A DNA stretch of 64,000 nt from an uncultured Bacteroidales bacterium. GTDB lineage: Bacteria; Bacteroidota; Bacteroidia; Bacteroidales; P3. The first letter of the stretch is position 1, and every line of letters starts with the position of its first letter. The notes beneath the pieces are model-generated. The model ran no database searches, had not been told where the DNA came from, and saw nothing but the letters and a program-made list of their open reading frames with translations. Of this stretch, positions 2,002 through 28,913 are shown piece after piece. The stretch is taken from the NCBI GenBank assembly GCA_944320265.1, contig CALUGT010000015.1:3194-67193 (forward strand), written 5' to 3'. The position numbers and the translations under genes are program-made.

Positions 2002-2005
2002 GACC

Positions 2006-3199: not shown

Positions 3200-3217
3200 A
3201 CTACTAATTGCTTTTCT

Positions 3218-3375
3218 TCAAAGTGGTGCCACCAGGAATCGCGAGATATTGGCAAGCAGCGCATCTTTGAGAATATGCTCATTATAAGGTTGGGTTATTC
3301 CTGTAAAGGCAAAGTTATAAGGGTCTTTTGTCAGTTCTTGTGCAAGATCGCTTGTCGTTTCCGGCAATGCGCTGG
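3218..3375 (-). pseudogene. Fragment of a DUF1016/YhcG-type PD-(D/E)xK nuclease gene
   Basis: The C-terminal end of the minus-strand ORF reads ...SDLAQELTKDPYNFAFTGITQPYNEHILKDALLANISRFLV. This matches the conserved central segment of YhcG/DUF1016 proteins (KDPY.FdFLgl...E..LE.aLi..l..FLLE). Both flanks of the family are missing. Confidence 0.5.
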
Positions 3376-3379
3376 TGAA

Positions 3380-11645: not shown

Positions 11646-13721
11646 CTATTTCACCTCGTGCGCATTGATATCGCGCATGTAGGTCAGCTTGAAATCCCTG
11701 CACTTGCGCTTTTCCTGAAACATCCCCTCTATGGAATTATACTCATAGCGGTCAAAAATATCCAAACCTCGACCCAATGTAATAACCCAACCTGTGTCGG
11801 TTTTGATACACCTGTCGTGGAAATCGCGAAACTCGTAAGAAAAAACAATGCCATACTCACTCAGGTTCGTTTGCACTGTCTTCAACAGCGCAATCAAATC
11901 ATCCCGCTTCCCCGGCTCTTCAAAAGTCACTAATTTCAATTGCAACTCATCCACCGGACGAGTCTGGACCAACATCGCAGCAAACTCTATGAAATGCTTG
12001 ACCTGCCCCCGAGTACGGACATACGGGTCTTCCAGCACAATGGCATGCGCCGTTTCCAAATAAGGAGCAAACAGCTTGGCATAAGAAAGCCCCGTCTGTC
12101 CTTGGCGAATGGAAAGCGTCTGTTCCTTGAGCACAGGCGGTTTGGACAAGCCCCTGGATCCGACCGCTTTCCCATCCTGAATCCGGGAATCCCCTACCGT
12201 ATCCATGGGAATCGCATCCAGCGGAGAAGCCTCCTCAAAGGAATCCTCCGTAGCGTTATTGATGTTTTCCAATGTCTCTATTGCCACTTGTTTGCCCGTC
12301 CGCAAAGCATCGTAACGGAACACTGCCGGTTCGGCCTTGAAAGTCTCATCCACCCGGTAAAGCTGATCCTTCACCCTTTTGCGAGCCTCTGCGGCAAAGT
12401 CAATCAATTCATAAACTTCCTCATCCGTTGCTTCGCCATCGGGATACAACAACTTCATCATACCCGACACCGTCTTGCGGACAGCCAGATTATCCCTCTC
12501 CGAAAGCGAAGTATCGAATTGTGCATAACGTCCAAGAATATCGGTCCAATCCCTGTCGCGCAACTCATGGAACATCGCTGCAACATAATCCGAAATCAAG
12601 CCGAACCCCTTCGAGAAACTTTCCGTCTTCAAGACCGGCACCTCCCAACCCGGCGCGTAAAAATGAATCCGATCCAAGAAAGCCCCTTTCAAGAAGCCCT
12701 CCGGTATGCTTTCAAAAAGATGGGATTGACGCAACATATACGAAACCGTATGTTTGGTATTGCCCACAAAAACCATCGAAGCACTGGCTTCGTGCGTGGC
12801 CTTTCCTCGATTGAAAGACTTGTTTGCCAGATAATTCTGCATGATATCCACCAAAGCCGCATCCACGTTCCGCCCTTTTTGCTGCTCAAACTCGTCCATA
12901 GCCACCACATCCCAATACCCCACCAAACCCAGCAATTCCTTGTTGCCCGACATCTTGACAAACAGACGAGCCGGTGTCACATCCCCGCCGCTCACCAGCA
13001 CACTGTAAGGCGAAAGTTCCTGGAAAACATGCGTCTTTCCCGTCCCTTTGGGACCCAGTTCAATAAAATTGAAATTGTTCTCCACATGCGGCAGCAGACG
13101 AGCCAGTATGATGAGCTTTTCCCTACGGTTCAGCAAATCGGGATTCAAGCCGACCGTATGCATCAGGAAATCCAGCCATTCCTCAGTAGAGAAGTTCTTG
13201 CGCTGACTCACATATTCCTCCACATCCACCCCCGAAATCTGAATCGGCTTCAGATTCTGGATATCCCAACGAACCGTAAGGCTCTCTCCAGACAAATAGC
13301 CAATCTGCACAATGCACCACACTCCCGTACCCGACAGCAACTTGGGATTCTTCTTTACATATTCCGCCCCGATAGGCACTCCCGTCAATCCCAGATTGGA
13401 GAATACGGCATGGTAGGCATCAGCCTTCTCATTCAAGCTCACCGTAATCTTGTCAATCACCCGGTATTTGCCCCTCTCCCGGATTTTCCCTTTCACCGAC
13501 TCGGCATCGGCCCTATGGACATAATTTTCCCGAATCACCTCTTTCACTTGCTCTATGCCATCGGCAATAGCTGCCGGATCATCCGTGGCGCAATACTGCG
13601 CTAAAAGGTATTCCAAGACATAAGTAGGCACCGGCAAGCCGCCCTTGACCAAAAAAGCCAAATCCTTGCGGACCACCCGTCCCGGAAAGGATTCCAATAT
13701 TTTATCTTTCAATGTTTTCAT
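11646..13721 (-). CDS. brxL: BREX BrxL-like AAA+ protein with a C-terminal MIT_C (PLD-like) domain instead of a Lon-protease-like domain
   Basis: The N-terminus (KILESFPGRVVRKDLAFLVKGGLPVPTYVLEYLLAQYC) and Walker A (LGPKGTGKTHVF) match BrxL. It is the last gene of the BREX operon. The C-terminal 151 aa read TGLSYAKLFAPYLETAHAIVLEDPYVRTRGQVKHFIEF...FHDRCIKTDTGWVITLGRGLDIF. This closely parallels the MITD1 C-terminal domain (IEDPYIR...[22 protein letters not shown]). Confidence 0.85.
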   Translation of the reverse strand: MKTLKDKILESFPGRVVRKDLAFLVKGGLPVPTYVLEYLLAQYCATDDPAAIADGIEQVKEVIRENYVHRADAESVKGKIRERGKYRVIDKITVSLNEKADAYHAVFSNLGLTGVPIGAEYVKKNPKLLSGTGVWCIVQIGYLSGESLTVRWDIQNLKPIQISGVDVEEYVSQRKNFSTEEWLDFLMHTVGLNPDLLNRREKLIILARLLPHVENNFNFIELGPKGTGKTHVFQELSPYSVLVSGGDVTPARLFVKMSGNKELLGLVGYWDVVAMDEFEQQKGRNVDAALVDIMQNYLANKSFNRGKATHEASASMVFVGNTKHTVSYMLRQSHLFESIPEGFLKGAFLDRIHFYAPGWEVPVLKTESFSKGFGLISDYVAAMFHELRDRDWTDILGRYAQFDTSLSERDNLAVRKTVSGMMKLLYPDGEATDEEVYELIDFAAEARKRVKDQLYRVDETFKAEPAVFRYDALRTGKQVAIETLENINNATEDSFEEASPLDAIPMDTVGDSRIQDGKAVGSRGLSKPPVLKEQTLSIRQGQTGLSYAKLFAPYLETAHAIVLEDPYVRTRGQVKHFIEFAAMLVQTRPVDELQLKLVTFEEPGKRDDLIALLKTVQTNLSEYGIVFSYEFRDFHDRCIKTDTGWVITLGRGLDIFDRYEYNSIEGMFQEKRKCRDFKLTYMRDINAHEVK

Positions 13722-13778: not shown

Positions 13779-16394
13779 TTAAAAATCCCGTTCCACCAAG
13801 GTGTTGTTCCGCACATTTTCCTTGACAAGCGGGTTGAGCGGATCTTCCACATCGTACACCCTGAGCTGAAGCAAACCTCCACTGCAAGGCCGAACCAAAC
13901 GCAAGCTTACCTCATAGACCCGTTCCCGCAGACCTTCCGCCTCCGTATTGTCCATGACCACCTGCTGTTCGTTGCTCACCGGTTCGTCCCCTTGGTATAG
14001 ACAGCAAACCACCGTCCGACCCATCCGCTCCGAAGAGACAGCTTCCGACTGCACCAACTTGAAACGCAAAAGACTGGAAACCACGCTCAAGCCCGAATCC
14101 TTCAATACCAGGCCCACTTTTTCCGTCTTCTTCTCGTTCCGCCTGCTGCTATAAATGACCGGCACAAGCATTTCCTGCAAGCTGGCACCGCCATGGGCAA
14201 ACGCATAACCGCCCGGAGCCGCAAAACGATTTGTCCCGCAAGGCACCGCCACATAGACCGGTGATGCCGTTTTCACTCCCGACACCGTCTCCAAGGCAAA
14301 TTTAGCCACCCCTTCCACCGGTTCGGGATTTGCCGTAAGATAATAACGGGTCTTCAATTCCAAGCATTTCCCATCCTTTTCCAAGCCGTTATTCCCCGCA
14401 ACCGAAAGCTTGTCCTTTTCCTCAAAGGGAATGTCGTTATACAAGAATCCATGATCAGCCGTAATCAACACATTGGTAATGCTGTACGAATAGTGAAGCC
14501 GCTTGACCAAGACAGCCAGCTGCCGCACGGCCTCCCGGCAAGCCCGGATTACCTCGAACGGGCTTTGCGAATGGCTGGCCCGGTCTATGCTATCATGATA
14601 GATATAAACCAAAGTGTTCTTGAACAACTCCTTCAGAACCGCCGTGCCACTGTTCATCACATAGTCGAAACTTACACAGACCGATCTTTCCTTGAACATC
14701 TTCAATTGCGCCGACCTCTGATCCATCTCTTTCAGGACCTGCCCGTCCACCGCCATCTCCGTCCCCCTGAGTTCCAAGGCATGGTGGGGAAGCAGCGCGT
14801 TCTTGCAGAACTTGGTTTCCGTAGGCAACATGGCCCGCATAGCCGACAACTTGGCCACACTGGTCTCTTTCAGCAATTCCTGCCGCAATTCCGCCGCCAA
14901 TTCGTAACGCAAGGCATCGCTGACAATCACCACCTGCTTCACCGTCTTATCACACACTAAACTAAAGAAATCCTCCTGCTTGGGCAAAGAAAGGGAAGCA
15001 AATCCCTCCCCTTTTTCCTGCACGCAAGAAATCCACTCCCAATTCAATGTATGGCAAATACGGGCATAATCCTGATCCAGGCGAGCCTTGGCATCGGAAA
15101 AGCCCTCTCCTTCCGGGTTAAGGTGCTCCACCAGCGCATGAAACGCCTCCACGGAACGCCGGTAATAGAAATCCACAAGATAATATTCCGACAAGTACTT
15201 CCGGGCATATTCTTCCGGACTGTCCAGCTTCAGGCTCCCTATCTCATGCACCGTGGCATAATACAAGGATAACTGTTCCACAAAACGGAACGCGAACTGG
15301 ATAGGCGCTTCCGGCGGCATCTTCAAGGTAAGTTCCTTGACCTTGGAAGTGACCGATGCCGGGTCGGCAACCAGACCTGTCTCCAAGCTTTTCTGCAAAA
15401 TAGGCCAGCAAAGAGCTTCCGTGAGATAAAAATACGGGGCATCGACCCCATAACAGGCTATCAGTTTTTCTTCCTTGATGTCCGATGCCAATACCGACAC
15501 CGCTTCCTGGAATTTCCCGCCCAAGGCACGGTCATGAACGCCTGTCTCGTAAATCCGGACAAGCTGATCCAAAGCCGGCTCGCTGCTTACCTCATAGATC
15601 TTGTAATCATCGGACGGTACGGGAGCAAGCCCCCGGGTAATGATATTGTACTTGAGGCTTGCGGCCACCGCCTGCATCTTAAGCGGCGTATTTTCCTCGT
15701 ATGTCCGACCGAAAATACGCCGCAGCTTGTCATCGAGCGCCTTCCGCACATCCGGGCTCTTCCCTACCCGGTAAAAGAAATCCAGACGTTTCTTTTCCTC
15801 GCTTGCCAATCCCAATACCAGCAGCTTGACCACGATCATATCCCAGTCCAGCAGCTTCTTTTCTCCAAGATAAGAAGAAATCAAGGCCCGGCATACCACC
15901 TCCTCGTGAAAGGCTTCCGGCGTGTAATAAGGCTGCAACATGGCATGCAGCTTGGCCGACATCATCTCCCCGATATGCCGTTTCACAAAGGCGGCGTATT
16001 TCTGCGGAAGGCCATACTGTTGCAAGAAGGACGCATAATCCTCTTCCTGGTATTCCATATTGGCTTTCAGCAAATCGAGCAAGGGGAAGGATAACAGCTG
16101 CGCTTCCGTCTGCGGATAAGACTCCCCTCCAAACAGCAGGACCACCCGCTTGTCTCTCCACGTATGCTCTATGCTGTACTTGGCATTGAACCAAGCCCCG
16201 TCGAACACCTTATAGACATAGCCATCCTTCCACTCCGCCGCGTCCAGTTCCACCTTGATGATGTCCATCCGGTCGAACACGAAAAGCACATGAAGCGCCG
16301 GATTGTTCTCGAAATATCGGTATATCCTCTCTTGTACCATAGCTTTATTGTCTTTATACGCTCCTATCAAGAAAACAATGGCTTCTGAATGCAT
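13779..16394 (-). CDS. pglZ: BREX alkaline-phosphatase-superfamily protein PglZ
   Basis: 871 aa with PglZ-domain motifs (VVIVSDALRYELAAEL; VLITADHGF). It sits between pglX and brxL. An alternative start at 16340 would remove the 28-nt overlap with the upstream small ORF. Confidence 0.9.
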   Translation of the reverse strand: MHSEAIVFLIGAYKDNKAMVQERIYRYFENNPALHVLFVFDRMDIIKVELDAAEWKDGYVYKVFDGAWFNAKYSIEHTWRDKRVVLLFGGESYPQTEAQLLSFPLLDLLKANMEYQEEDYASFLQQYGLPQKYAAFVKRHIGEMMSAKLHAMLQPYYTPEAFHEEVVCRALISSYLGEKKLLDWDMIVVKLLVLGLASEEKKRLDFFYRVGKSPDVRKALDDKLRRIFGRTYEENTPLKMQAVAASLKYNIITRGLAPVPSDDYKIYEVSSEPALDQLVRIYETGVHDRALGGKFQEAVSVLASDIKEEKLIACYGVDAPYFYLTEALCWPILQKSLETGLVADPASVTSKVKELTLKMPPEAPIQFAFRFVEQLSLYYATVHEIGSLKLDSPEEYARKYLSEYYLVDFYYRRSVEAFHALVEHLNPEGEGFSDAKARLDQDYARICHTLNWEWISCVQEKGEGFASLSLPKQEDFFSLVCDKTVKQVVIVSDALRYELAAELRQELLKETSVAKLSAMRAMLPTETKFCKNALLPHHALELRGTEMAVDGQVLKEMDQRSAQLKMFKERSVCVSFDYVMNSGTAVLKELFKNTLVYIYHDSIDRASHSQSPFEVIRACREAVRQLAVLVKRLHYSYSITNVLITADHGFLYNDIPFEEKDKLSVAGNNGLEKDGKCLELKTRYYLTANPEPVEGVAKFALETVSGVKTASPVYVAVPCGTNRFAAPGGYAFAHGGASLQEMLVPVIYSSRRNEKKTEKVGLVLKDSGLSVVSSLLRFKLVQSEAVSSERMGRTVVCCLYQGDEPVSNEQQVVMDNTEAEGLRERVYEVSLRLVRPCSGGLLQLRVYDVEDPLNPLVKENVRNNTLVERDF

Positions 16395-16909
16395 TCACGG
16401 AATTGAGAAACATCGCAAACTTTGCATTTCGCCAATGCCTTTTCCACCCGGCTTTGCTGAGCGAACCAACGTTCAGCCCGGGCAGTCACATTCTTATTGA
16501 AAACGAACCAAGCAGATGAATCAATACGCAAACCGCCTTCTGAAAGCAAATCCCTCGTATGCGACATTTTCTCCCTCAATTCACTCAGAGACAAATTATT
16601 CGTATTCTTGTACTTCATTCTCAATTCTATCATCAACAACCGTCTCTCCCGCAATTGTCCGTCAGTTTGAGACGCAAGCCCGATTACCGCATCCATGGTA
16701 GGCTTTGGTTGAGCGGACTTGCAAATTTTACTCTCGTAAGTATCCATATCCAAGCATCGTATCTCCTTGTCAAAATAATCCGTTCCAGAGTAATCCCGAT
16801 TGGACACATCATTCAACAAAGCTCCGCATTTCGAGAACAAGAGATGACGCTCAAGATACGCATTATCATATACCAGGGCTTCCATATTCTTTGATTCTGT
16901 CCAAGGCAA
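16367..16909 (-). CDS. Hypothetical 180-aa protein, partner of the embedded ATPase (contains an Rx4H motif)
   Basis: The ORF overlaps the ATPase stop (16866) and the pglZ start (16394), so it is translationally packed into the BREX operon. The composition looks helical. It contains LSELREKMSHTRD (R112-x4-H117) and DAVIGL...LLMIELRMK. I recognise no family. Confidence 0.5.
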   Translation of the reverse strand: MPWTESKNMEALVYDNAYLERHLLFSKCGALLNDVSNRDYSGTDYFDKEIRCLDMDTYESKICKSAQPKPTMDAVIGLASQTDGQLRERRLLMIELRMKYKNTNNLSLSELREKMSHTRDLLSEGGLRIDSSAWFVFNKNVTARAERWFAQQSRVEKALAKCKVCDVSQFRECIQKPLFS

Positions 16910-18200
16910 TATTGAAAGACTTGAAAATCTCGGCTATCTCATGGCCAAGGTTCTTATAAACAAACTGATGGGGCGATGTTTGCGAAGGCTCTGCCACATA
17001 AAACCAAGTGGTATCCAGCATGCCTTCCTTCTCGGCTATGTCGTGGAGAGCGGCCACCATGTCGGGATTATGCGAAGCCAACAGCACTTTCAAGCCCAAT
17101 TTCTTGTTCAACAGCACCAGCAGCCGGGCAAACTCCACAATCCATTGCGGATGAAGATGCGCTTCCGGCTCATCAATCAGCAAAAGCGTATTCTTGTCCA
17201 AATGCCCATTTTCCAGCAAACGCTGCATATAGGCAAAAGTCTTGAAACCGGTAGCCACTTGCTTCAATTCTATATTCACCTGGCCATCCTTTGACACATA
17301 ACGAAGCTCCGGCCTCCCTATTGGGTTCTTTTCCATCAAGACCTTACCTTCTATCAAATGGCCAATCCCCTCCAGCATGGAAGAAGCCTCCGGCGACAAT
17401 GCATGCTTCTTATCCATAACCCTCCGCTGCAAATCCCTCCAAATCCTATTGGAAGAATCCTCCGTTGCCGCCATTGGCGTATCTATATAAATAGCATCCT
17501 TCAGATTCAGCAAACGGCCAACAGTATCCTGTTCCATAATCCCTACACTGTCTTCCTCCAACTGCAATTCTTCAGGCACACCTTCGTCCATAGGGAACCT
17601 TTGCTGCACGAACTCAAATAGAAGTTTCCTCGGCCTATTTCCAAGCTTTTGATGTAAGGCTTCGGTCTCCTTTTGCAGGTGTTCTCTTTCCTTCTGTGAA
17701 AATAGGGCAATAGACAAGGTCAAATCGCTTCCGATATGGATATCCAAAAATTTCAAAACCCTTTCCACCCGTTCTTTCGGCATCTCATCATCCAAGCCTG
17801 ACAAACATTCTTCCGTAAAGGCAAGGGCATCCAAATACAATTCCTGCATTTCTTCAATCATACTATCCAACTCTCCAGAAACAACTTGCATAAATTTCCC
17901 CTTGACTTGCTGTATCCTGTTTGCCGCACTATCCATCGGGTTATCAGAAACTCTTCCTCGTCCCAATTCCATGCAGGCAACACGCCAATCCTCCATCTTT
18001 TTCCACAACTTGCCACCGTAATCATCCACCACCAGATACCTTTCAAGATTCACAGCCCCATTGACAATATAATACAGCCAGCGAGAAAGGGTGCTTTTGC
18101 CGCATCCGTTGACTCCCGACAAGACCGTGATGCCGTCAAGCTCGATTTCCGCATTTTCAATAGCGTGATAGTCACGCATGATATATTTATATCGGCTCAT
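16866..18200 (-). CDS. ABC-like AAA family ATPase (AAA_15/AAA_21 type) embedded in the BREX operon
   Basis: Walker A is LSGVNGCGKSTL. A long helical insert is followed by Walker B/D-loop LLLIDEPEAHLHPQW and an H-loop-like LLASHNPDMV. No nuclease domain is visible in the 444 aa. Confidence 0.85.
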   Translation of the reverse strand: MSRYKYIMRDYHAIENAEIELDGITVLSGVNGCGKSTLSRWLYYIVNGAVNLERYLVVDDYGGKLWKKMEDWRVACMELGRGRVSDNPMDSAANRIQQVKGKFMQVVSGELDSMIEEMQELYLDALAFTEECLSGLDDEMPKERVERVLKFLDIHIGSDLTLSIALFSQKEREHLQKETEALHQKLGNRPRKLLFEFVQQRFPMDEGVPEELQLEEDSVGIMEQDTVGRLLNLKDAIYIDTPMAATEDSSNRIWRDLQRRVMDKKHALSPEASSMLEGIGHLIEGKVLMEKNPIGRPELRYVSKDGQVNIELKQVATGFKTFAYMQRLLENGHLDKNTLLLIDEPEAHLHPQWIVEFARLLVLLNKKLGLKVLLASHNPDMVAALHDIAEKEGMLDTTWFYVAEPSQTSPHQFVYKNLGHEIAEIFKSFNIALDRIKEYGSPGI

Positions 18201-18229: not shown

Positions 18230-19003
18230 TCATTTCAATTTGGCAAGGACATCGCCGAACTTGGCATGGTTCACAATAACCCCATCGTCCAAATCCAAAT
18301 CGATGGCCTGTTCCGCCACTACTTGCAAACGGTCGTGGTATTCCCGGCATTCATCCAATGTCTTTTCCAAAGCGCTCAACTTGCGCGTCTCCCCCGTGCT
18401 CAACTGGGCGGCCCGGGATTCCAAGTCCTTGGCCCGGTTTTGCAAAAAATCGATATAAGGCAGAAGGTATTTGACCCGGATGCGTTCCGCCGTGTAAGGA
18501 GCCATCCGGTGCAGATAGGTGATGCAGCGGAAAGCCCCCTTCCTGGAAGACCAAAGCCAGTAGATAGGGCGGTTCTGGTACATCCGCTTATGGTCTTTCC
18601 AGAACTCCTTGTCCACATAACGCTCTATGGTCATGCCCAAGCTCTTTTCCATGAAATTAAGGTTCTCGGTCAATTTTGCCGTGCCAAAGGCAATGCGGAC
18701 AAAGTCCACCACCCTCCGTTCCAGATTGTCCTCAAAAGGGCAATCGTGCGGCAGCAGGGGAATGATGCCGTCATCGTCTATCTGCAAGACTTGCCCCTTA
18801 TATTGGTAAGGAGCCAATTCCTCTGCCGTAGGCTTAGGATGGGCTATATGCAAACCCGGTTTATCCAAACGGTAACGCCCCATCCAGACACCCACCGCAT
18901 AACTGATCAATTGCTGCATGGCCACCTCCGGATGCCATACAATCCTTTCCGAACCTGCCACGTTTGTATTCATTGCTTTCATTTCTTCGCATTTCTTTTC
19001 CAT
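18230..19003 (-). CDS. pglX: BREX PglX, C-terminal fragment (separate ORF)
   Basis: It contains MQQLISYAVGVWMGRYRLDKPGLHIAH ... NRPIYWLWSSRKGAFRCITYLHRMAPYTAERIRVKYL, the conserved C-terminal region of BREX-1 PglX. The start is set at the first ATG (19003); the ORF track extends to a TTG at 19048. Confidence 0.8.
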   Translation of the reverse strand: MEKKCEEMKAMNTNVAGSERIVWHPEVAMQQLISYAVGVWMGRYRLDKPGLHIAHPKPTAEELAPYQYKGQVLQIDDDGIIPLLPHDCPFEDNLERRVVDFVRIAFGTAKLTENLNFMEKSLGMTIERYVDKEFWKDHKRMYQNRPIYWLWSSRKGAFRCITYLHRMAPYTAERIRVKYLLPYIDFLQNRAKDLESRAAQLSTGETRKLSALEKTLDECREYHDRLQVVAEQAIDLDLDDGVIVNHAKFGDVLAKLK

Positions 19004-19055
19004 ACACTCTTGCTTCAGACTTAAACGAACCAACTCCAAGAAAAGCAACCTATTT

Positions 19056-20735
19056 TCAGAAAAGAGTCCTTCCCTTTTCTGTAAGCCGGTAAGTCTGCTT
19101 CGCGCTGGTCGGCTTGTCCGGATACGTCATAGCGACATAACCCAGTCTGATAAGCGGAAGAATAATCTTTCGTTTCAGCTCTTTGGTTGAATCAAAAGAA
19201 AGATTATCGTTCAAGCTGTTGGCCGACATGGAACTCTTCCTTAAAAGGCATAGCAAATCAATCGTATCAGACATCAGTTCTTGAACACTATCCTTAGACC
19301 GCCCCTCCCACACTTGGACAAACATTTGTCCAAGTATCTGTCCAAGCTCTATCTTTTTCTTTATAACACACTGATTCACCATCAATTCAACTTGGACAGC
19401 CATTTGTCCAAGTCTGAGTCTAAGTCTGTCGTCAAGCACACATTCCTGCCCTTCAAAAACACGGTCAGCATCTTCGAACCCATGTCGACAAGGAATCGTA
19501 AGAAGAAAATAAGTTCTACCCTCATCCGTGTCAATAGTTGCTGGCGCAGATCCATTCTCTTTCAATGCCTTCTGAATTGTCGGTATCCCAGTCGCCCTGC
19601 CCTCCGTCAAATCCAATTCTTTCAAAAAATCGCCCAATCTACGGTTACGATACCTGCGAGCCTTCAATTTCTGCGCCATTTTTATAGCCTCCGCGCTAAT
19701 GGACCTATCAGGTCCGGCATAGCTCAATATATCGATATGGGTAGGTTCTACTGTGATTTCCACAGGTTCCCGTTCTTGATAATCACGGTGATACAAAGCA
19801 TTGACGACAGCTTCCTCTAAGGCTTGGTAAGGATAATTGAATATCCTATTCGATTTCTCGGTATCTGCCGGTTTGATAATCTTTGTCTTGACGACATTGG
19901 TACGAAGATACGACAAAGTTTCCTTGATAATCCGAGGTACAGGGCCGACTATCTTGGGAACCTCAATTAGTAAATCAGGATTGTCGATACTTCCGCCCGG
20001 AAACAACACGATATCAACTTGTGTAACAGGAAAGAACTTTTCTGGATATTCACAAAACATCATTATGGCACAATTTTTTATCTGCCTGCATTCTGTCGGT
20101 CCTGTCAGCAAATCCATCTCGTCAAGAATATCTATCAGCGGCCTCGCAACAAAACTTTCCGCCAGCTTGCTCCCTACTTTCTTGAGATGCTCATACACAA
20201 GTACGCCGGATATATCGTCTATTTTTGCAAAAGCATTGCCCCGTTCATCAAAGGGCACACGATTTACCAACTCACGTACCGCATCCAAAATCTCGCCTTT
20301 AGCCTCGATGGTGGAAGACTTGCTTCGTATATAAAATTTCGACACCGACTTTTTGGCAACTACGCTTTCAGCCACAGAATAAGGTCTGTTTATTCCAGCC
20401 GGAACCCATATGACAAGAATATTTTTCCCATCCACTTCTTCCACCGACACTTTAGAAAGGTAGGTTGGAGAAACCTTGGCATCATAGCCCACCATATCTT
20501 TCTGAATACGGTCTATCTCGTTTTCGGCCAAACCCTTTACCGGCCTCTTTGCAATCCCGTTTTCTTCTTCAACCCCCACCAGAATATATCCGCCTCCGAT
20601 ATTGTCAAAATCGGTGGCAAAGGCAGCAATAGTATGATAAATTTTATCCGGATTCCAACCCGCTTTAAATTCTATCCGGTTCGACTCGACCCTCCGTCTG
20701 TTAAGCAAATCTTCGATGTTTATAGGTAGTGCCAT
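19056..20735 (-). CDS. Schlafen/AlbA_2 domain plus HATPase_c_4 plus C-terminal wHTH protein, nested within pglX
   Basis: The N-terminus is VESNRIEFKAGWNPDKIYHTIAAFATDFDNIGGGYILVGVEEENG (AlbA_2). The middle is EEAVVNALYHRDYQEREPVEITV...GRATGIPTIQKAL (HATPase_c_4). The tail resembles winged-helix regulators. It is on the same strand as the two pglX pieces and is visibly more AT-rich than the flanks. Confidence 0.8.
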   Translation of the reverse strand: MALPINIEDLLNRRRVESNRIEFKAGWNPDKIYHTIAAFATDFDNIGGGYILVGVEEENGIAKRPVKGLAENEIDRIQKDMVGYDAKVSPTYLSKVSVEEVDGKNILVIWVPAGINRPYSVAESVVAKKSVSKFYIRSKSSTIEAKGEILDAVRELVNRVPFDERGNAFAKIDDISGVLVYEHLKKVGSKLAESFVARPLIDILDEMDLLTGPTECRQIKNCAIMMFCEYPEKFFPVTQVDIVLFPGGSIDNPDLLIEVPKIVGPVPRIIKETLSYLRTNVVKTKIIKPADTEKSNRIFNYPYQALEEAVVNALYHRDYQEREPVEITVEPTHIDILSYAGPDRSISAEAIKMAQKLKARRYRNRRLGDFLKELDLTEGRATGIPTIQKALKENGSAPATIDTDEGRTYFLLTIPCRHGFEDADRVFEGQECVLDDRLRLRLGQMAVQVELMVNQCVIKKKIELGQILGQMFVQVWEGRSKDSVQELMSDTIDLLCLLRKSSMSANSLNDNLSFDSTKELKRKIILPLIRLGYVAMTYPDKPTSAKQTYRLTEKGRTLF

Positions 20736-20751
20736 GGTATGTTCTCTATTT

Positions 20752-23721
20752 TTATTCGGTGGGGGATTTCTCGATGGAGATTTCGCCTTGCTGGAGGATG
20801 GTCACCTCTTCCAAGGGCACATCGGGGGTAAGCTCGTCGGCGAGGTCGTAGATTTCGATGAACTGCCGGTTGAGTTCCTCCTCGTTCCGGTGCAATTGCA
20901 GGAACTTGGTCTCCCATTTGGTCTTATAGACCTCATAGCGCCATTCCAAACTGTCTAAATCGAGTGCCGGCAGATTCACACAAGGCACTCCCCGGAAATC
21001 GGCATCTTCAGCCATAATATCTCTATAGGCATTCTCATCTATCGCCACCAACTCGTTCTGTTGGAAATCCCAAGAAGTCTCATGCGCGTCCCAGTCCTGC
21101 TTGGAGATGGAGATGTTTTGAAAAACTAATAAATCTATCTTATCTGAATCCTCAATAACAATAAAGGGAATCTTTCCCATAGGTCCCTCATGATAATCCA
21201 AAGTTGGAGATAATGTCTGTAAAAACACATATGATAAAGCCGAATTAAGGTATCCCATAATGCAATACAAATCATTATCAGCATAAGGGAAACAAACCGA
21301 ACCCTTGGTTTCAAAAAGCCAACTCCTATCAAAATAACGAAAAGACGGTTTCCCAGAGGATATTGTAGACCACGTAGCACCTATCTTTCCAAAATAGAAG
21401 CCTTCATTCTGAGGACGAGACTTCAACTTTCCATCTATGTCTTTAAAATTTTTTATTTCAACTCCGTTATGTTCCCAATTCACCACATATTCCATATTGC
21501 CATACCATCGTCTAAAAGTACCACCTTTGGTAATAGGAAACCATTTTTTTCCTGATTCTTTTGCTTCTTCAGCAGAACCCATTCCAAATCCAATCCGTGC
21601 CAGAGTGACTTCATGCCAATATCGAATAAACCTGGCGTTGTCCGCTGTTTGCAAGCCTACACAAGGCTTAGCAACAGCGGACAACGCCAGGTTTCCCGCG
21701 AAGCGGGAAAAAATTTTTTGAGAAACCCAGTACCCTATCGGGCTTCCGGGGATTTTTTTGAAATTTTGCTGAAGAACATGGGGGTAATAAATCCGATTTC
21801 CAACCTCCGAATAAGGCAATGTCTCAACTTCTTTGGTATATTCCTTGAAATTATACTTAAAATCATGGTCTGCTAAAGTCTGTTCAAACAACATCCGCAA
21901 ATGCTTTTGGTCAAACTCTTGGAATGTACGCTCCACCAAACGGAAATAGGTCCCGCAAGCAGCCGGATTCTGCGACTTGGCAATCACAGCCGACGACGAG
22001 CCAAAGTCTGCGCCAAACACCCCTCTACTAAGATGCAAAATAGAATCGATAGATTGACTATCGAGTATTCCTTTCCGCAAATTTTCAAAAGTACTTAGAA
22101 ACATCCAAGATGGAGGGATAATAAACCCATATCGTCCATGCGTTTCTAATCTTTGGGGCATCATTTCAACAAAAACCGTAGCCAAGTCCCCCTTCCCAGC
22201 CTCGTAATGCTTCTTCACATAAGCCGACAAGACCGGATTCATATTGCCGCCGCCCATATAAGGTGGATTCATCACCAAAACCGCATATTTCTCCGTCAGT
22301 ACCTTAATCAGGTCCAAGGCCGGTAGCAAAGCCGTGACGGATTCCGGCAACAGGGGCTGCGCCTTCCAGTAATCCATCGCCTGGGATATGGCCGATAGCG
22401 TAGTTTCGGACAAGTCGAACTTCATAATGGAACCCAAGGATTCGGCATCGGATAGCAAAGAAAAGGCCTTTTGCATCTCTGCCAGCATCTTGTCATTCTC
22501 CAGACCATTAAAGAAGGCTTTCAACGCCTTATCCAACGAGCCATAAGCCCCCTCATTCCAAGGCTGAGGCATATCCAAGACCTGCGGCAAAACCTTGGCA
22601 TCGACAAAGGAGGCATCTTTCTGGCAGGCTTTGAGCAGAAGCGCAAACAAGGCAAGCTGCTTGGCCCGGGTATCTATGTCCACGCCCCTCAGGTTGCAAC
22701 GGAAGATATTCTCCACCGCTTCCTTGCGCCCATAGCCCTCGGAGATATAAAGCTCGTACAAAAGGTCGAAGCATTCGTTGAGGATATGGCCAGATCCGCA
22801 AGCCAGATCCGCCACCTTCAAATCGGTCAGTTCGGCATAGCGGTAACGGCATTCCTCCGGTGTCGGTTCTCCCTCCACCCAATAAGCCCACTTCCGCTTC
22901 GCCTCCTCGGCATAAGGATTGTTATCCCAATAAATCCTCCCCAAGGTATTCTGCACCATATATTTCACAATCCAATTGGGCGTGAAAATCTGGGTTGCCG
23001 CTGGAATCTCGTCCGCCTCGAACTTGCCTTTCTTGGCAAACACCTCATCCTTGCGTTCCGAGATATAGAACTGGTAGAGCCAGCCTATCAGTTCCGGGGA
23101 ACGGTAGTCCTCCTCGGCAATAAAGTCGGTATGGTTGAGCATGTCCACAAAACCGCCCTCGCTCAGGATGTTGATCGGCAGCATCAGTTCCGTGTAGTCC
23201 TGCATGCGCCCGAAACAAGCCTGCATCAAAGGGTTCTGATGGCACCAGGCCACCATCAGAAGCGCGAACTGCTCGGTGGTCTTGGTATCGTCTTCCAACA
23301 ATTCCAGCAAACGCGTCCTTTCCGCCTCCGGCATACGGGGCAAGCGTCCCCGCCTGGCATCGTCCACGATACGGGGGGTGCGCACCTCGTCCACGAACTC
23401 GATTACCGGCTCGCACAGGCCGTTTTTCTGAAGAATCCGAATCGCCACCAGACGGTTGAACCAGGTGTAAGCCGCCTCCTCGCAGGTCTCCTGCATCCCT
23501 TTCCGGGCGATTCTCTCGTAGAGCGCCATCCAGCTATGGTAAAAGCGTTCCGTATAGAAACCGCCCTGCCAGAGGGTTCCGCCCTGCATCAGCTTGGGCA
23601 TGGCTTCTTCCGGGATATGGCCGTTCTTGTCAAAGCCCAAAGAACGTATCTTGGCTTCCACGCCGCTCTTGAGGCGGGTCCGGGCTTCGTTGGCGAATTT
23701 CTTCAGCTTGTTGGTTTCCAT
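20752..23721 (-). CDS. pglX: BREX adenine methyltransferase PglX, N-terminal fragment (989 aa, methyltransferase core)
   Basis: The N-terminus (FANEARTRLKSGVEAKI..., YTWFNRLVAIRILQKNG) is typical of PglX. Motif I is VADLACGSGHIL and motif IV is VLVMNPPYMGG. It ends ...TILQQGEISIEKSPTE-stop, about 240 aa short of a full-length PglX. Confidence 0.9.
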   Translation of the reverse strand: METNKLKKFANEARTRLKSGVEAKIRSLGFDKNGHIPEEAMPKLMQGGTLWQGGFYTERFYHSWMALYERIARKGMQETCEEAAYTWFNRLVAIRILQKNGLCEPVIEFVDEVRTPRIVDDARRGRLPRMPEAERTRLLELLEDDTKTTEQFALLMVAWCHQNPLMQACFGRMQDYTELMLPINILSEGGFVDMLNHTDFIAEEDYRSPELIGWLYQFYISERKDEVFAKKGKFEADEIPAATQIFTPNWIVKYMVQNTLGRIYWDNNPYAEEAKRKWAYWVEGEPTPEECRYRYAELTDLKVADLACGSGHILNECFDLLYELYISEGYGRKEAVENIFRCNLRGVDIDTRAKQLALFALLLKACQKDASFVDAKVLPQVLDMPQPWNEGAYGSLDKALKAFFNGLENDKMLAEMQKAFSLLSDAESLGSIMKFDLSETTLSAISQAMDYWKAQPLLPESVTALLPALDLIKVLTEKYAVLVMNPPYMGGGNMNPVLSAYVKKHYEAGKGDLATVFVEMMPQRLETHGRYGFIIPPSWMFLSTFENLRKGILDSQSIDSILHLSRGVFGADFGSSSAVIAKSQNPAACGTYFRLVERTFQEFDQKHLRMLFEQTLADHDFKYNFKEYTKEVETLPYSEVGNRIYYPHVLQQNFKKIPGSPIGYWVSQKIFSRFAGNLALSAVAKPCVGLQTADNARFIRYWHEVTLARIGFGMGSAEEAKESGKKWFPITKGGTFRRWYGNMEYVVNWEHNGVEIKNFKDIDGKLKSRPQNEGFYFGKIGATWSTISSGKPSFRYFDRSWLFETKGSVCFPYADNDLYCIMGYLNSALSYVFLQTLSPTLDYHEGPMGKIPFIVIEDSDKIDLLVFQNISISKQDWDAHETSWDFQQNELVAIDENAYRDIMAEDADFRGVPCVNLPALDLDSLEWRYEVYKTKWETKFLQLHRNEEELNRQFIEIYDLADELTPDVPLEEVTILQQGEISIEKSPTE

Positions 23722-23779: not shown

Positions 23780-26700
23780 TTACTTTATCACCGTCACTTC
23801 GTAGCCGTCATTGATTTTGTCCATCAGCTGCTGCTTGATCTTCTTCAAATAGTCATCCACTTCCTTTTCCGTGCGCATGGGCACGAAAGTCCGGGTGGAC
23901 AACTCTATACTGCAAGGCTTCCGGGTCTTGCCTAGTTTCCCTGCCGACTGCCCGTCTTGGTCCATGCCTGGATCATGGGCCGTACCGGGAAGGCCGGGCT
24001 GGGGATAATCCTGCGGTTTCTTCCGAGCCAGTTCCGCTTGAATCAAATCCAATTGCTGGCTTGCAAAACTTTGCGTATCCAGATTGTTCTTCAGCATCAG
24101 GATATTGCTCGAGGCGGTCTTTTCCTGAAGGATGCGCTTGCGGTCGGCCAATACGGACTTGTCCACGCCCTGCTGCTCGGCACTCTGTTCCAAAGCATCG
24201 AAAAGGGCATTATATTCCTTTTCTATCTGCTGCCGCAATTCCTGGCGCTGCTTGTCGAGGGCTGCCGAAACAGCATTTTTCAACTTGATATAGTCCCGGA
24301 TGGAGATAGGCCAGGCTTGGGTCTCTATGCCCTTGAGTTCTTCCGCCTGCGCTTGGAGTTCGGCCGGTACAAAGGCAAAATTGTCGCGGTTTTCCCGTAC
24401 AAAAGCCAGCAAGGAACGGTAATTGTCAAACTGATCCTGCACAAAAGCCAGAACTTCCTTGCAGGTGTCCGCCAGCTTGGCCGCTTCTTCCTGACTGTCT
24501 ATGATACTCTGGAAGAATTTCTGGTTGTCCCGGATTTCTATCCACTGATCCAGCATCGCAATAAATTCCCGCAGCGGCTTCACAAACGGGTATTCCGCGT
24601 AACGGCTTTCCTCCTCCCGGTATGTCTTTTTGCAGGCGGGCAGGCTGTTCTCGTTCTTGGCATCCTTGCATTGGCGGAAAATCTGGGTGCTGTCGGACGA
24701 GGCGAAGGCATCCTTGCCGAAAATCCGTTTCCATGCATCCACAAAACGGTTCACCAAATCCTGCGGAATGGCTTCCGCCCGGCGAAGCGTGAATTTCTTG
24801 GTCTCGGTCAGGATGCGGCTCGCCACGACAGAGGCTTCCACTTCCGGACTATTGAGGTAAAGGTAGTCCCGCCGATGACGGCGCACCAGCTCGTTAATCA
24901 CGTACAAAGTGCAGACATCGTCCCAACCGTAGGGGGCTTTGGCGAACTTGGCCAATACATCCGCCACATTCACTTCGGCAAACTGCTTGTCAAGATAGAT
25001 TTCCACTTCCTGCTCGGCCTGCGTCAAGCTGGAGTTCAGCTCGCCATAGTCGTAAGACTGCACGGGACGCAGGATGGACTGGCGCAACTGTTCGGAAGTA
25101 TGAGGGTATTCGGCCCGGTTCACCAAGCCCGCCTTGGTATAGATATTGCCTAAATGCTTCTGCAAGGCTTTGCGGTAACGTTCCTCGCCCTTGCTGTTCA
25201 ATATTTCCGGATCTTCCACCACCGACACGCCCGACACGATGGGGCATGTGTCCAAAATAGAGGCAAAGCTCTTGGCAATGACGGTATCCATCAATTCCCT
25301 GGCTCTCTTCTCGAACTCGCCCCTGATTTTGGCGTTCTCTTCGGTAAGCGCCGGGGATGCCATGTAACGGCTCACTTGGCAATACCAATAGAAGGCGTTC
25401 CGCAAGCGGTTGTCTTTCTTGTACTGGGAGGCCACGTAATAGACAAGCCTGTTAGCCGGATTGCCCACCGTGATGGCGGCAGCGCTGTCGTATTCCTCGT
25501 CCATCTGGAAATCGACCACCACATCGGCGTTGTTGCTCAGGAAGGTACGTTGCTTGATAGTCGCCCCCACTGCAAAGGAACGGGTCATATACGTCTCCTT
25601 GTTCTTGGGGTTGCCGAAATGCCGGAAAAAGATATCCTTCAATACTTCGGCTTGGGTATTGTTGTCAGGGACCTGGCCTTTGATCTGCGAGGCCACTTTC
25701 ATTTCCTCTTCCGAATAGAAGCTATAGGTTTCGGGAAGCCCTTTCCTGGCCTGCTCCCGACGGATGATATTGTTATCGCAGAAATAGTCCAGCACCTTTT
25801 CCACTTCCTGCTTGATGGTGAGCCAAGGCGTCCTGAGATCGTTGACCAACAAAGTCGTCACATTGTCCAAGCTGGCCGGGAACACCATCTTGTCCCGATC
25901 ATCGATATTGCAAATCATGAACAGGACATTGGCTACCCGCCGAGCCAGTTCCGGCTTGGAATAGGTCCGGGCCATATCCATCGCGTTGCTGATGGCTTTC
26001 TGCCCTTTTGCCTGCAAGCCTTCCTCGAACATATTGTTGTACAGCTCGTCGAAAGAGACGAAATGCCCCAACTCCTGGTCCTTGTCATTCTTAGCCGTGG
26101 AATGAATCACTTTGATAATGCTGCGTTCATTGCCCTTCACCTCCTTGGCCACATAGCCCAACAGCAGGAAATTATTGAATACCTGCATGATTAGCTTGAA
26201 CTGGTAGGGCACGAAGGGATAATAGGCAACAAAATCTTCCTGGCTGCGATAGGACTCATAGCTATTGGGCAACTTGAAATGAAGGTCAAAGGAAGGGCTT
26301 TCCTTGGCATACCATTCCCCTAAAACCGGTTTCACTTCCGCTTTCTTTTCCAGGATACGTTTCTGGGTAATCACTTCGGGCTTGGTGCCTTTGAGGGATA
26401 CCGTCACCTCGAAGCGCCCCTTGATTTTCCCTTCCTTGTCCTTTCCTTCCATAATGTTGCAGTCGTCCATCACTTCCGAAAGGTCCTGCTGCGCGGTGCA
26501 GGCCACCCAAACCTGGTTCTGACAAGACTCGGACAGCTTGGTGACAATCTCCTGCAAGTTCAGGTAACGGTCTTTTTCCTTGTTGATGAATTGGGAAACC
26601 TCATCGGCCAACAGGACCAAACGGTAATCCTTGCCTTTGTCCTTGAGCCACGATGCCACCTCGCCGGCAAAACGCTCTATGCTGACCGTGGTATCGCGCT

Positions 26701-27427: not shown

Positions 27428-28035
27428 TCATTAATCAGAAGCGTGGCACGATAAGTATGATTGTCGGGAAGGAGGCCGAAAAGCCGGAAGGAATTGCCTT
27501 CCCGCTTGCCGGGATAAAAGACAATAATCTTGTATTTGTCGGTCTGGTTGTAGTCTTCGTAAAGAGCCAGGAATTCGTTGACCCGGAGATAGGGAAACAT
27601 GGATCCGATGCCGTGCAAGAAGACATAGGGCCGCTTGTATTGGTCTTTTTGGGAAATATGATGCTGGATCCGATGGTCGATGTATTTCAGGAAATCCTCA
27701 TGATGGGCGTTGCGCGTCAAGGTATCCTGAACGTTGGAAGCCTGAGCCGGGTCGTTTTCTTCCTTTTTCAAAAGGTAGCCGAGCATGGAAGGATTGTTCA
27801 AGAACTTCTTTTGGTCCAAGAAGGCGCAAAATTCCTCAAAAAGATTCAACACCAGCACATCCACGTAATTGAGCGGGCGTATCAGGTTGGCCTTGAATTC
27901 CTGTATCTCCTTCCGGATACCGTATTCGTTCTCGGCAGGGTACTGGAAAAGATAAAAGTTGTAGAACAAATCCCCGTTTTCCGCATCCTGGAAACCGGGA
28001 CTGCTCAGCTTCTCATAGAGTTCCTTTACGGTCAT
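27424..28035 (-). CDS. brxB: BREX protein BrxB (DUF1788)
   Basis: From the Met at 28035 the sequence reads MTVKELYEKLSSPGFQD...FYNFYLFQYPAENEYGIRKEIQEF...VFLHGIGSMFPYLRVNEFL...IVFYPG. This is a DUF1788-like pattern. It has ATGA-type overlaps with brxA and brxC. Confidence 0.85.
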   Translation of the reverse strand: MTVKELYEKLSSPGFQDAENGDLFYNFYLFQYPAENEYGIRKEIQEFKANLIRPLNYVDVLVLNLFEEFCAFLDQKKFLNNPSMLGYLLKKEENDPAQASNVQDTLTRNAHHEDFLKYIDHRIQHHISQKDQYKRPYVFLHGIGSMFPYLRVNEFLALYEDYNQTDKYKIIVFYPGKREGNSFRLFGLLPDNHTYRATLLINE

Positions 28036-28661: not shown

Positions 28662-28913
28662 AATTGCGCAAATATGCAAATTTAAGAAATTCTTATGTAC
28701 CGAATGGATTCCTGTCAAAATTCATACATATTACAAACAACATTTCCCTATAAGAAGGTATTTCCATAAAGAAAAATACCTATTTATAGCGATAACAAAA
28801 CCCGTGAGACCCTTGTACTTTCGCAAACGAAAACAGAGACAGCAAACATCCAATCCAAAAATTTGATTTTATTTAAAATAACACCATAAAAAAACAAAAT
28901 AAATTCAAATAAC

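What the first reader, a model, noticed from the sequence alone, without database searches (positions are those of the whole stretch)
11646..12101. BrxL whose Lon-protease-like C-terminal domain is replaced by a MITD1-type MIT_C (phospholipase-D-fold) domain
The N-terminal and AAA+ parts match BrxL. The last 151 aa read TGLSYAKLFAPYLETAHAIVLEDPYVRTRGQVKHFIEFAAMLV...SEYGIVFSYEFRDFHDRCIKTDTGWVITLGRGLDIFDRYE. As I recall it, the C-terminal domain of human MITD1 reads TGFSYESLFREYL...[25 protein letters not shown]...[34 protein letters not shown], and the two are collinear nearly motif for motif. In MITD1 this PLD-like fold mediates dimerisation and membrane binding rather than catalysis. Canonical BrxL is described as a Lon-like AAA+ protein with a Lon-protease-type C-terminal domain. 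A MIT_C swap would imply a different output for the terminal BREX component, such as membrane tethering or a PLD-type nuclease-like role.
Basis: partly seen in the sequence, partly recalled or inferred. Interest (0 to 1): 0.7.

Follow-up and report, generated by a model that had tools for sequence, protein, structure and literature searches.

The report
BrxL with PLD-like MIT_C tail
The last gene of this phage-defence (BREX) operon does carry a MITD1-type phospholipase-D-fold domain in place of the usual Lon-like tail. However, this variant is common (about a third of BrxL proteins) and was described in print in 2025-2026, so it is a correct observation and not a discovery.

Summary
Window 11646-13721 (-) encodes a 691-aa BrxL with BrxL_N, a BrxL AAA+ ATPase, a variable ~50-aa linker, and a full-length MIT_C domain (PF16565, E 4.6e-35). 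No Lon_C signal appears even at E<=10. An AlphaFold model of the tail (pLDDT 96) superposes on human MITD1 at TM 0.86 and 1.7-2.0 A. Canonical PLD enzymes and nucleases follow far behind (TM 0.35-0.47).

The novelty claim fails. PADLOC's 2023 BrxL model PDLC02508 matches end to end. All 120 best database homologues and the 80 best of 156 species-level genome hits share the architecture. Li et al. 2025 (PMC12065111) reported MIT_C on many BrxL proteins. A 2026 BREX survey (PMC12839542) counted it in 1030 of 2913 BrxL-bearing type-1 BREX taxa and called it an HKD-endoDNase with an H-R-D motif.

The window protein keeps that site: D565, Q573, H635-D-R637, D642, R651-G-L-D654. H635 and R637 are invariant in 134 of 134 diverse MIT_C domains.

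The most likely role is a DNA-directed phosphodiesterase or pairing module tethered to the DNA-loaded BrxL ring. No experiment exists, and Lys-to-Arg inactivates classical PLD1. Membrane tethering is unsupported.

In passing, PglX in this operon is split in two by an inserted Schlafen-type gene.

The parts
11646..13721 (-). brxL gene, 691 aa plus stop; last gene of a type-1 BREX operon
   Evidence: ORF list. PADLOC PDLC02508 BrxL matches residues 1-685, 830 bits. TIGR02688 BrxL equivalog scores 529 bits against a cut-off of 329. The identical protein occurs on at least 23 metagenome contigs.
13296..13691 (-). BrxL_N domain (residues 11-142; HTH-like plus OB-fold DNA-binding region)
   Evidence: Pfam PF20442, E 4.1e-46. 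Aligns to Acinetobacter BrxL 8emc. Domain reading from PMC12839542.
12333..13265 (-). MCM/Lon-like AAA+ ATPase domain (residues 153-463). Walker A GPKGTGKTH lies at 13029-13055 and Walker B WDVVAMDE at 12891-12914.
   Evidence: Pfam PF13337, E 5.1e-120. Alignment to 8emc/8emh. Motif coordinates verified.
12117..12332 (-). Post-ATPase beta-hairpin (residues 464-487, still shared with Lon-tailed BrxL) followed by a variable, acidic, probably disordered linker (residues 488-535). The domain-swap junction lies here.
   Evidence: The profile match to 8emc extends to about residue 494 of the chain. Identity to homologues is 49% in the hairpin and 16% in the linker, against 78% in the ATPase. pLDDT is below 50 over 481-545.
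11670..12116 (-). MIT_C domain (residues 536-684), phospholipase-D-superfamily fold
   Evidence: Pfam PF16565, E 1.8e-36 when scanned alone. AF2 pLDDT 96.3, pTM 0.90. Foldseek against MITD1 gives TM 0.85-0.87, rmsd 1.7-2.0 A, E about 3e-15. PLD2, F13, Zucchini and Nuc follow at E 4.5e-4 to 1.7e-2.
11796..11819 (-). H635-D-R637-C-I-K-T-D642: an HxR(x)4D motif in the same register as the PLD HxK(x)4D motif
   Evidence: Translation. H635 and R637 are present in 134/134 diverse MIT_C domains and D642 in 117/134. Called the HDR/HRD motif.
11994..12029 (-). D565-P566 just after strand beta2, then Q573 and H576 on the following helix. These are the second set of conserved putative site residues. Position 576 is Asn in 121/134 family members and His here.
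   Evidence: Conservation table. Secondary structure of the model. Coordinates.
11760..11771 (-). R651-G-L-D654, a near-invariant loop after the HxR strand. It is positionally comparable to the GSxN part of the PLD motif, shifted by one residue.
   Evidence: R651 127/134, G652 134/134, L653 131/134, D654 132/134. Coordinates.
13779..16394 (-). pglZ, immediately upstream of brxL
   Evidence: Pfam PglZ, E 1.3e-37. PADLOC PglZ PDLC02553, E 3.7e-101.
18230..23721 (-). pglX methyltransferase split into PglX-N (20752-23721, 989 aa) and PglX-C (18230-19048, 272 aa) by a Schlafen/AlbA_2-HATPase_c_4 gene (19056-20735, 559 aa)
   Evidence: PADLOC PDLC02521 positions 1-931 and 936-1170. The pieces align to residues 10-988 and 992-1232 of an intact 1232-aa PglX.
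23780..28718 (-). brxC (23780-27427), brxB (27424-28137) and brxA (28032-28718): the head of the type-1 BREX operon
   Evidence: Pfam and PADLOC hits to BrxC, BrxB and BrxA.
16367..18200 (-). Embedded accessory pair: an OLD/ABC-type AAA_15/AAA_21 ATPase (16866-18200, 444 aa) plus a 180-aa ORF with no family (16367-16909)
   Evidence: Pfam. PADLOC hits to HEC-02A, AriA, Old and others.

Best explanation
This is an ordinary member of the known 'BrxL-MIT_C' (also called 'BrxL-HKD') class of type-1 BREX BrxL proteins, from a Bacteroidales-like genome.

Shown:
- An N-terminal DNA-binding region and an MCM/Lon-like AAA+ ATPase, homologous to the Acinetobacter BrxL that forms ATP-dependent rings around dsDNA.
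- A variable linker of about 50 residues.
- A complete MIT_C domain whose model superposes on human MITD1 and which belongs to the phospholipase-D fold superfamily.
- Retention of the family's near-invariant polar residues: D565, Q573, H635, R637, D642, R651, D654, R672.

Inferred:
- The ring loads on unmodified phage DNA, as in Lon-tailed BrxL.
- The tethered MIT_C domains pair, as single-HKD PLD nucleases and MITD1 do. This replaces the ring-to-ring pairing role of the Lon-like tail.
- The pairing presents a two-histidine, phosphate-binding site to the DNA.
- That site most likely acts as a phosphodiesterase (nuclease) that adds a cleavage activity beside PglZ.

I rate the identity as near certain. 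I rate catalytic DNA cleavage at roughly 0.45-0.5.
For: Identity:
- Pfam and PADLOC/NCBIfam domain calls.
- PDB sequence matches to BrxL 8emc and MITD1 4a5z.
- CTD model with pLDDT 96.3, matching MITD1 at TM 0.86; next come PLD2, F13, PLD1, Zucchini and Nuc.
- Operon context brxA-brxB-brxC-pglX-pglZ-brxL.

Commonness:
- 120/120 best homologues share the architecture.
- 156 species genomes hold relatives, and the 80 best match through the tail.

A functional site, as opposed to a scaffold:
- H635, R637, Q573 and G652 are 134/134. D565 is 131, D654 132 and D642 117 of 134 domains drawn from 50%-identity clusters.
- The motif register HxR(x)4D equals the PLD HxK(x)4D register.

Nucleic-acid direction:
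- Other MIT_C proteins carry S1, PC4, IF2_N, Helicase_C, GIY-YIG, Schlafen, BrxA or PglZ domains.

Pairing role:
- The Lon-like tail of Acinetobacter BrxL mediates tail-to-tail ring dimerisation.
Against: - No biochemical or genetic test of any MIT_C-tailed BrxL was found.
- MITD1 itself is known for membrane binding, not catalysis (title of Hadders et al. 2012, cited).
- The motif lysine is arginine throughout the family, and the equivalent K898R change is the standard catalytically inactive PLD1 mutant. 'Conservative substitution, hence active' is therefore not safe.
- Similarity to proven PLD nucleases is remote: Nuc at E 1.7e-2 and TM 0.35. No sequence-profile hit to any PLD appears in the PDB at E<=10 or in Pfam.
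- This particular protein has His at position 576, where 121/134 relatives have Asn.
- Dimer geometry could not be modelled with the tools at hand.
Confidence: 0.85

Rival explanations
1. The MIT_C tail is non-catalytic. It serves as a dimerisation or assembly module that stacks or bridges BrxL rings, functionally replacing the inactive Lon-like tail. Its conserved His/Arg pocket merely binds a backbone phosphate or a small phospho-ligand.
For: - The Lon-like tail of canonical BrxL is itself catalytically dead and works in ring-ring dimerisation.
- MITD1's MIT_C has no reported enzymatic activity (describes activity only as a hypothesis).
- K-to-R in the HKD motif kills classical PLD1.
- There is only remote similarity to proven nucleases.
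Against: - Absolute conservation of His and Arg, and near-absolute conservation of Asp, Gln and Arg residues, across 134 diverse domains from bacteria and eukaryotes. This is more than a pure interface usually shows.
- Pseudo-PLD domains such as FAM83 are described as lacking PLD activity (abstract listed), whereas MIT_C keeps its motif histidine.
- Fusion partners include catalytic and nucleic-acid-binding modules.
Confidence: 0.33
2. Membrane tethering (one of the first reader's two proposed outputs). The MIT_C tail binds acidic phospholipids as in MITD1 and anchors the BrxL ring at the inner membrane, for example at the site of phage DNA entry.
For: The closest solved relative, MITD1, was published as a PLD fold 'that binds membranes' (reference 87). 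The model superposes on it at TM 0.86.
Against: - Only 28-29% identity to MITD1.
- In the wider family, only 1 of 150 representatives has a MIT domain and only 8 of 150 have any hydrophobic segment. Recognisable partners are nucleic-acid-binding or nuclease modules and BREX proteins.
- BrxL is a DNA-encircling ring.
- The residues used by MITD1 for lipid binding could not be checked, because that paper is not held.
Confidence: 0.08
3. Artefact or decaying gene: the tail is a chance ORF extension, a fusion created by mis-assembly, or a pseudogenised remnant.
For: None beyond the general caution that the window is of unknown origin. The N576H change departs from the family consensus.
Against: - An uninterrupted 691-aa ORF.
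- The identical protein occurs on at least 23 independent metagenome contigs.
- The same architecture is seen in hundreds of clusters and in complete genomes such as Segatella copri.
- The tail is 58% identical to homologues, against 16% for the linker.
- The model has pLDDT 96.
Confidence: 0.01

Closest known systems
BrxL with C-terminal MIT_C / 'HKD-endoDNase' (PADLOC PDLC02508; Li et al. 2025, PMC12065111; BREX survey, NAR 2026, PMC12839542)
   Same: - Identical domain order: BrxL_N, AAA+ ATPase, linker, MIT_C.
- End-to-end match to the PADLOC model.
- The same H-(D)-R...D motif and the acidic residue after beta2.
- The same position as the last gene of a type-1 BREX operon next to an apparently intact PglZ.
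   Different: Nothing of substance.
- The protein is only 59-69% identical to its nearest genome and metagenome relatives.
- It has His instead of the usual Asn at position 576.
- It sits in an operon whose pglX is split.
Acinetobacter BrxL (PDB 8EMC/8EMH; Shen et al. 2023, PMC10164562)
   Same: The N-terminal region and AAA+ ATPase are clearly homologous (E 7.5e-133 over residues 5-457), including the Walker A and B motifs and the post-ATPase hairpin. The same operon role is expected: an ATP-dependent ring on dsDNA.
   Different: The Acinetobacter C-terminal domain (residues 498-679) is a Lon/RadA-like fold with no protease site, and it dimerises rings. Here that domain is absent and is replaced by the unrelated PLD-fold MIT_C domain on a longer, variable linker.
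Human MITD1 C-terminal domain (PDB 4A5Z, 2YMB; Pfam PF16565)
   Same: Same fold (TM 0.85-0.87, rmsd 1.7-2.0 A over about 153 columns). Collinear motifs are shared: SY..LF, DPYIR, Q..N, T, HDR, GW, GRGLD, R.C.
   Different: - 28-29% identity.
- MITD1 has an N-terminal MIT domain that binds ESCRT-III, where this protein has a DNA-loading ATPase.
- MITD1 has Asn where BrxL has D642.
- MITD1's known activity is membrane binding in cytokinesis.
Single-HKD PLD-superfamily nucleases (Nuc 1BYR, Zucchini/PLD6 4GGJ, BfiI, NgoAVII R protein)
   Same: Same superfamily fold by Foldseek (E 7e-3 to 1.7e-2). A histidine lies in an HxK-like motif with an Asp seven residues on. The domain size is similar, and these enzymes act as homodimers with a composite active site (established knowledge).
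   Different: - Arg replaces the motif Lys.
- The GSxN element is replaced by GRGLD, shifted by one residue.
- TM is only 0.35-0.37.
- No sequence-level match.
- Activity is unproven.

Membership tests
BrxL (type-1 BREX terminal component) | BrxL_N domain plus BrxL-type AAA+ ATPase, scoring above curated cut-offs | tested here: met
   PF20442 E 4.1e-46 and PF13337 E 5.1e-120. TIGR02688 scores 529 bits against a cut-off of 329. 8emc matches at E 7.5e-133.
BrxL (type-1 BREX terminal component) | Intact Walker A and Walker B motifs | tested here: met
   GPKGTGKTH (residues 223-231) and WDVVAMDE (residues 270-277) align with the Acinetobacter motifs, including the E280 equivalent.
BrxL (type-1 BREX terminal component) | Encoded in a brxA-brxB-brxC-pglX-pglZ-brxL operon | tested here: met
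   All six components lie on the - strand between 11646 and 28718. pglX is split.
Lon-tailed BrxL (TIGR02653 / PDLC02506 type) | C-terminal Lon/RadA-like domain | tested here: not met
   TIGR02653 scores 540 bits, below its 628 cut-off, and aligns only to residues 4-457. PDLC02506 aligns only to 2-460. No Lon_C hit on the tail even at E<=10.
MIT_C domain family (Pfam PF16565) | Full-length match above the gathering score | tested here: met
   121-126 bits against a cut-off of 25, covering profile positions 1-142 of 142.
MIT_C domain family (Pfam PF16565) | MITD1-like three-dimensional fold | tested here: met
   Model pLDDT 96.3. TM 0.85-0.87 and rmsd 1.7-2.0 A to 2ymb/4a5z.
MIT_C domain family (Pfam PF16565) | Family-invariant residues (Asp after beta2; Gln; His-x-Arg before beta5; GRGLD; Arg-x-Cys) | tested here: met
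   D565, Q573, H635, R637, R651-G-L-D654, R672 and C674 are all present. The only departure is N576 to H.
PLD superfamily HKD nucleases | HxK(x)4D(x)6GSxN motif | tested here: not met
   The sequence is H635-D-R637-(x)4-D642-(x)7-G-R-G-L-D. His and Asp are in register, Lys is replaced by Arg, and GSxN is replaced by GRGLD.
PLD superfamily HKD nucleases | PLD fold | tested here: met
   Foldseek probabilities are 0.95-1.00 to PLD2, F13, PLD1, Zucchini, PSS and Nuc at E 4.5e-4 to 1.7e-2, but TM is only 0.35-0.47. There is no sequence-profile match.
PLD superfamily HKD nucleases | Homodimer with a composite two-His active site and phosphodiesterase activity | not testable with these tools
   No multimer prediction and no access to model coordinates. 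No published assay was found.

The most novel reading that the evidence does not exclude
The MIT_C tail of BrxL may not be a DNase at all. Its invariant His/Arg pocket would bind a phosphate ester (a lipid head group or a nucleotide), and the domain would pair or tether BrxL rings, possibly at the membrane where phage DNA enters. This would mirror MITD1's membrane role in cytokinesis. On this reading the published 'HKD-endoDNase' label for a third of all BrxL proteins would be wrong.
Probability: 0.12. Interest if true: 0.5.

Novelty: already known. Interest (0 to 1): 0.15.

Why it matters
For this window it matters little. The gene should simply be annotated as a MIT_C/HKD-type BrxL in a complete type-1 BREX locus.

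The class as a whole is still worth attention. How BREX stops phage DNA is unresolved. About a third of BrxL proteins carry this domain, and nobody has tested whether it cuts DNA.

A positive result would give those BREX systems a second nuclease beside PglZ. It would also suggest that human MITD1, which keeps the same His/Arg site, might be an enzyme. That hypothesis is already in print, so this window adds one more example and no new idea.

Tried and rejected
- A full-length AlphaFold run on 45 close homologues gave a poor model (mean pLDDT 47). It was used only to confirm BrxL and MITD1 matches. The tail was re-run alone with a diverse alignment.
- A profile search of the PDB with the diverse MIT_C alignment at E<=10 found no PLD enzyme. 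The link to PLD nucleases therefore rests on fold comparison only.
- The MITD1 structure paper (PMC3491508) is not held. Its lipid-binding residues and dimer geometry could not be compared.
- The genome-contig scan used narrow peptide patterns and returned only MIT_C-type close relatives. It could not give an independent Lon-versus-MIT_C ratio, which is taken from PMC12839542.
- I considered and rejected a chance match, a mis-assembly fusion and a pseudogene.
- I considered that N576H marks an inactivated site. Four of 134 diverse relatives also have His there, and the rest of the site is intact, so nothing can be concluded.
- Model coordinates are not exposed to scripts. Spatial clustering of the conserved residues could not be computed.
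Full report
**What is there.** The finding's coordinates fall at the 3' end of a 691-aa ORF on the minus strand, window 11646-13721. Pfam places three domains:
- BrxL_N at 11-142 (E 4.1e-46).
- BrxL_ATPase at 153-463 (E 5.1e-120).
- MIT_C (PF16565) at 544-683, covering the whole 142-position profile (E 4.6e-35, 121 bits against a cut-off of 25).

The tail scanned alone hits nothing but MIT_C even at E<=10, so there is neither Lon_C nor a classical PLDc domain. Against PDB sequences, residues 5-457 match the Acinetobacter BrxL of 8EMC/8EMH (E 7.5e-133). The Lon-tailed BrxL models stop aligning at residue 457-460. TIGR02653 falls below its cut-off, whereas the 449-position BrxL equivalog TIGR02688 passes.

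**Anatomy.** Walker A (GPKGTGKTH, residues 223-231) and Walker B (WDVVAMDE, residues 270-277) are intact. After the ATPase comes a short hairpin (residues 464-487) that is still homologous to the Lon-tailed protein. Next is an acidic linker (residues 488-535) that is only 16% identical to close homologues and variable in length. By comparison, the ATPase is 78% identical and the MIT_C domain 58%. The domain swap junction therefore lies in this linker.

A full-length AlphaFold run was poor (pLDDT 47). The tail alone, run with a diverse 102-sequence alignment, gave pLDDT 96.3 and pTM 0.90. Foldseek against the PDB puts MITD1 first (TM 0.85-0.87, rmsd 1.7-2.0 A, 28-29% identity, E about 3e-15). 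The next hits are PLD2, vaccinia F13, PLD1, Zucchini, phosphatidylserine synthase and Nuc, at E 4.5e-4 to 1.7e-2 with TM 0.35-0.47. Membership of the MIT_C family is thus firm. Membership of the PLD superfamily holds at fold level. The relation to proven HKD nucleases is remote, and a profile search of PDB sequences finds none.

**Context.** The gene closes a type-1 BREX operon on the minus strand:
- brxA, 28718-28032
- brxB, 28137-27424
- brxC, 27427-23780
- pglX, 23721-18230
- pglZ, 16394-13779
- brxL, 13721-11646

The flanks encode a type IX secretion substrate, a cation-efflux protein, DUF4857 and PepSY-like proteins. Together with the taxonomy of the BrxL relatives, these point to a Bacteroidales host.

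**How common it is.** A search of 5.8 billion proteins saturated at 8000 candidates. All 120 listed hits (66-69% identity, plus one at 99%) carry BrxL_N + BrxL_ATPase + MIT_C. A scan of one genome per GTDB species found 156 genomes with relatives. The 80 best matched through residue 675-691 in all but one case, which sits on a 4.7-kb contig and matches to residue 584. They are mostly Prevotella, Segatella, Bacteroides, Phocaeicola, Parabacteroides, Muribaculaceae and Alistipes, with a few Firmicutes and an Elusimicrobia MAG. PADLOC's 2023 model PDLC02508, named simply 'BrxL', matches residues 1-685 end to end, and its positions 541-696 are the MIT_C domain.

**What is already published.** Li et al. 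[quoted passage not shown] A BREX survey (NAR 2026, PMC12839542) reports that in 1030 of 2913 type-1 BREX taxa with BrxL the Lon-like domain is substituted by this 'HKD-endoDNase'. It notes the Lys-to-Arg change (the 'HRD motif'), shows an AF3 model, and proposes that the domain degrades invading DNA alongside PglZ. No paper with an experimental test was found. The architecture is not the majority form, but it is a major and documented one.

**Is the site likely functional?** I searched the tail against 1.84 billion cluster representatives. This gave 855 clusters at E<=1e-3 and 378 at E<=1e-10. I then aligned 134 domains that cover it fully. Conservation was as follows:

| Residue | Present in (of 134) |
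|---|---|
| H635, R637, Q573, G652 | 134 |
| D654 | 132 |
| D565, T599, W645 | 131 |
| R672 | 129 |
| R651 | 127 |
| D642 | 117 (Asn in 15, as in MITD1) |

The window protein has all of these. H635-D-R-C-I-K-T-D642 is in exactly the register of the PLD HxK(x)4D motif. Its one departure is His at position 576, where 121 of 134 have Asn and 4 others also have His.

Among 150 representatives, 20 are BrxL fusions. The other recognisable partners are S1, PC4, IF2_N, Helicase_C, GIY-YIG, Schlafen, BrxA and PglZ. Only one representative carries a MIT domain, and only 8 have a hydrophobic segment. This favours a nucleic-acid-directed, phosphate-handling site over membrane tethering.

Several points argue against assuming activity:
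- The equivalent Lys-to-Arg change (K898R) is the standard catalytically dead PLD1 mutant.
- MITD1 has no known enzymatic activity.
- The similarity to Nuc-type nucleases is weak.

**Most likely mechanism.** The shown elements are a BrxL ring ATPase with a tethered MIT_C/PLD-fold domain and a conserved His/Arg/Asp site. The rest is inferred by analogy. The Acinetobacter BrxL forms hexameric rings on dsDNA, and its Lon-like tail dimerises rings tail to tail. Single-HKD PLD nucleases act as dimers with a composite site (established knowledge). By analogy, the ring would load on unmodified DNA. The MIT_C tails would then pair, within or between rings, and present a two-histidine site to the DNA, most probably for cleavage. 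I put catalytic cleavage at about 0.45-0.5, a non-catalytic pairing or phosphate-binding role at about 0.33, and membrane tethering at about 0.08.

**Verdict.** The novelty is not there: the class is already known, and no experiment on it was found. Interest is low for this window. The class remains an attractive experimental target, because no MIT_C-tailed BrxL has been tested.

**Seen in passing.**
- pglX is cleanly split. A 989-aa N-terminal piece aligns to residues 10-988 of an intact 1232-aa PglX from a related locus. A 272-aa C-terminal piece aligns to residues 992-1232 of the same protein.
- A 559-aa Schlafen/AlbA_2-HATPase_c_4-Fic-like_C gene lies between the two pieces.
- The same split occurs on all four displayed contigs (of 23 read) that carry the identical BrxL.
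- The junction is continuous and in frame in 11 related loci where it could be examined.
- An OLD/ABC-type ATPase with a 180-aa partner that has no Pfam family is also embedded, between the PglX-C piece and pglZ.

Noticed in passing
window 18230-23721 (- strand): The BREX methyltransferase gene pglX is split into two ORFs at an inter-domain linker just after the TILQQGE motif. PglX-N (989 aa) corresponds to residues 10-988 and PglX-C (272 aa) to residues 992-1232 of an intact relative, with no coding sequence lost. A complete 559-aa Schlafen/AlbA_2-HATPase_c_4-Fic-like_C gene lies between them. The split is present on all four displayed contigs (of 23 read) that carry the identical BrxL. The junction is continuous in 11 related loci. 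Whether the two-piece PglX is functional is unknown. The 2026 BREX survey does not mention split PglX.
   Followed up: partly
window 16367-18200 (- strand): An OLD/ABC-type ATPase (AAA_15/AAA_21, 444 aa; PADLOC hits to HEC-02A, AriA, Old, PtuA, GajA) lies between PglX-C and pglZ, inside the BREX operon. It overlaps a 180-aa ORF with no Pfam family. No homologue of either was found in the 80 related genome loci. It is probably an embedded 'backup effector' pair of the kind catalogued in PMC12839542, with an unidentified effector.
   Followed up: partly
window 11994-11996 (residue H576 of BrxL): This BrxL has His at a position that is Asn in 121/134 diverse MIT_C domains and in all 44 aligned close homologues. 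The position lies on the helix next to invariant Q573. It could tune or weaken the putative site.
   Followed up: partly
window 433-3832: The left flank looks like a defence and mobile-element patch. It holds a type I HsdM methylase (433-2001, -), a short integrase-like ORF with only Arm-DNA-binding and SAM-like N-terminal domains (2404-3141, -), an overlapping DDE transposase ORF (3029-3832, +), and a YhcG/PDDEXK fragment (3218-3781, -). In sister contigs this region differs (DUF1016 fragments against HsdM), which suggests local rearrangement.
   Followed up: no
L005 12122-13836 (related locus): In a related Bacteroidales contig, the MIT_C-type brxL is followed by two small ORFs with no Pfam family and a SIR2-domain gene, and then by plasmid-like relaxase and Rep3 genes. 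There the BREX locus may therefore sit on a mobile element with a further defence module.
   Followed up: no
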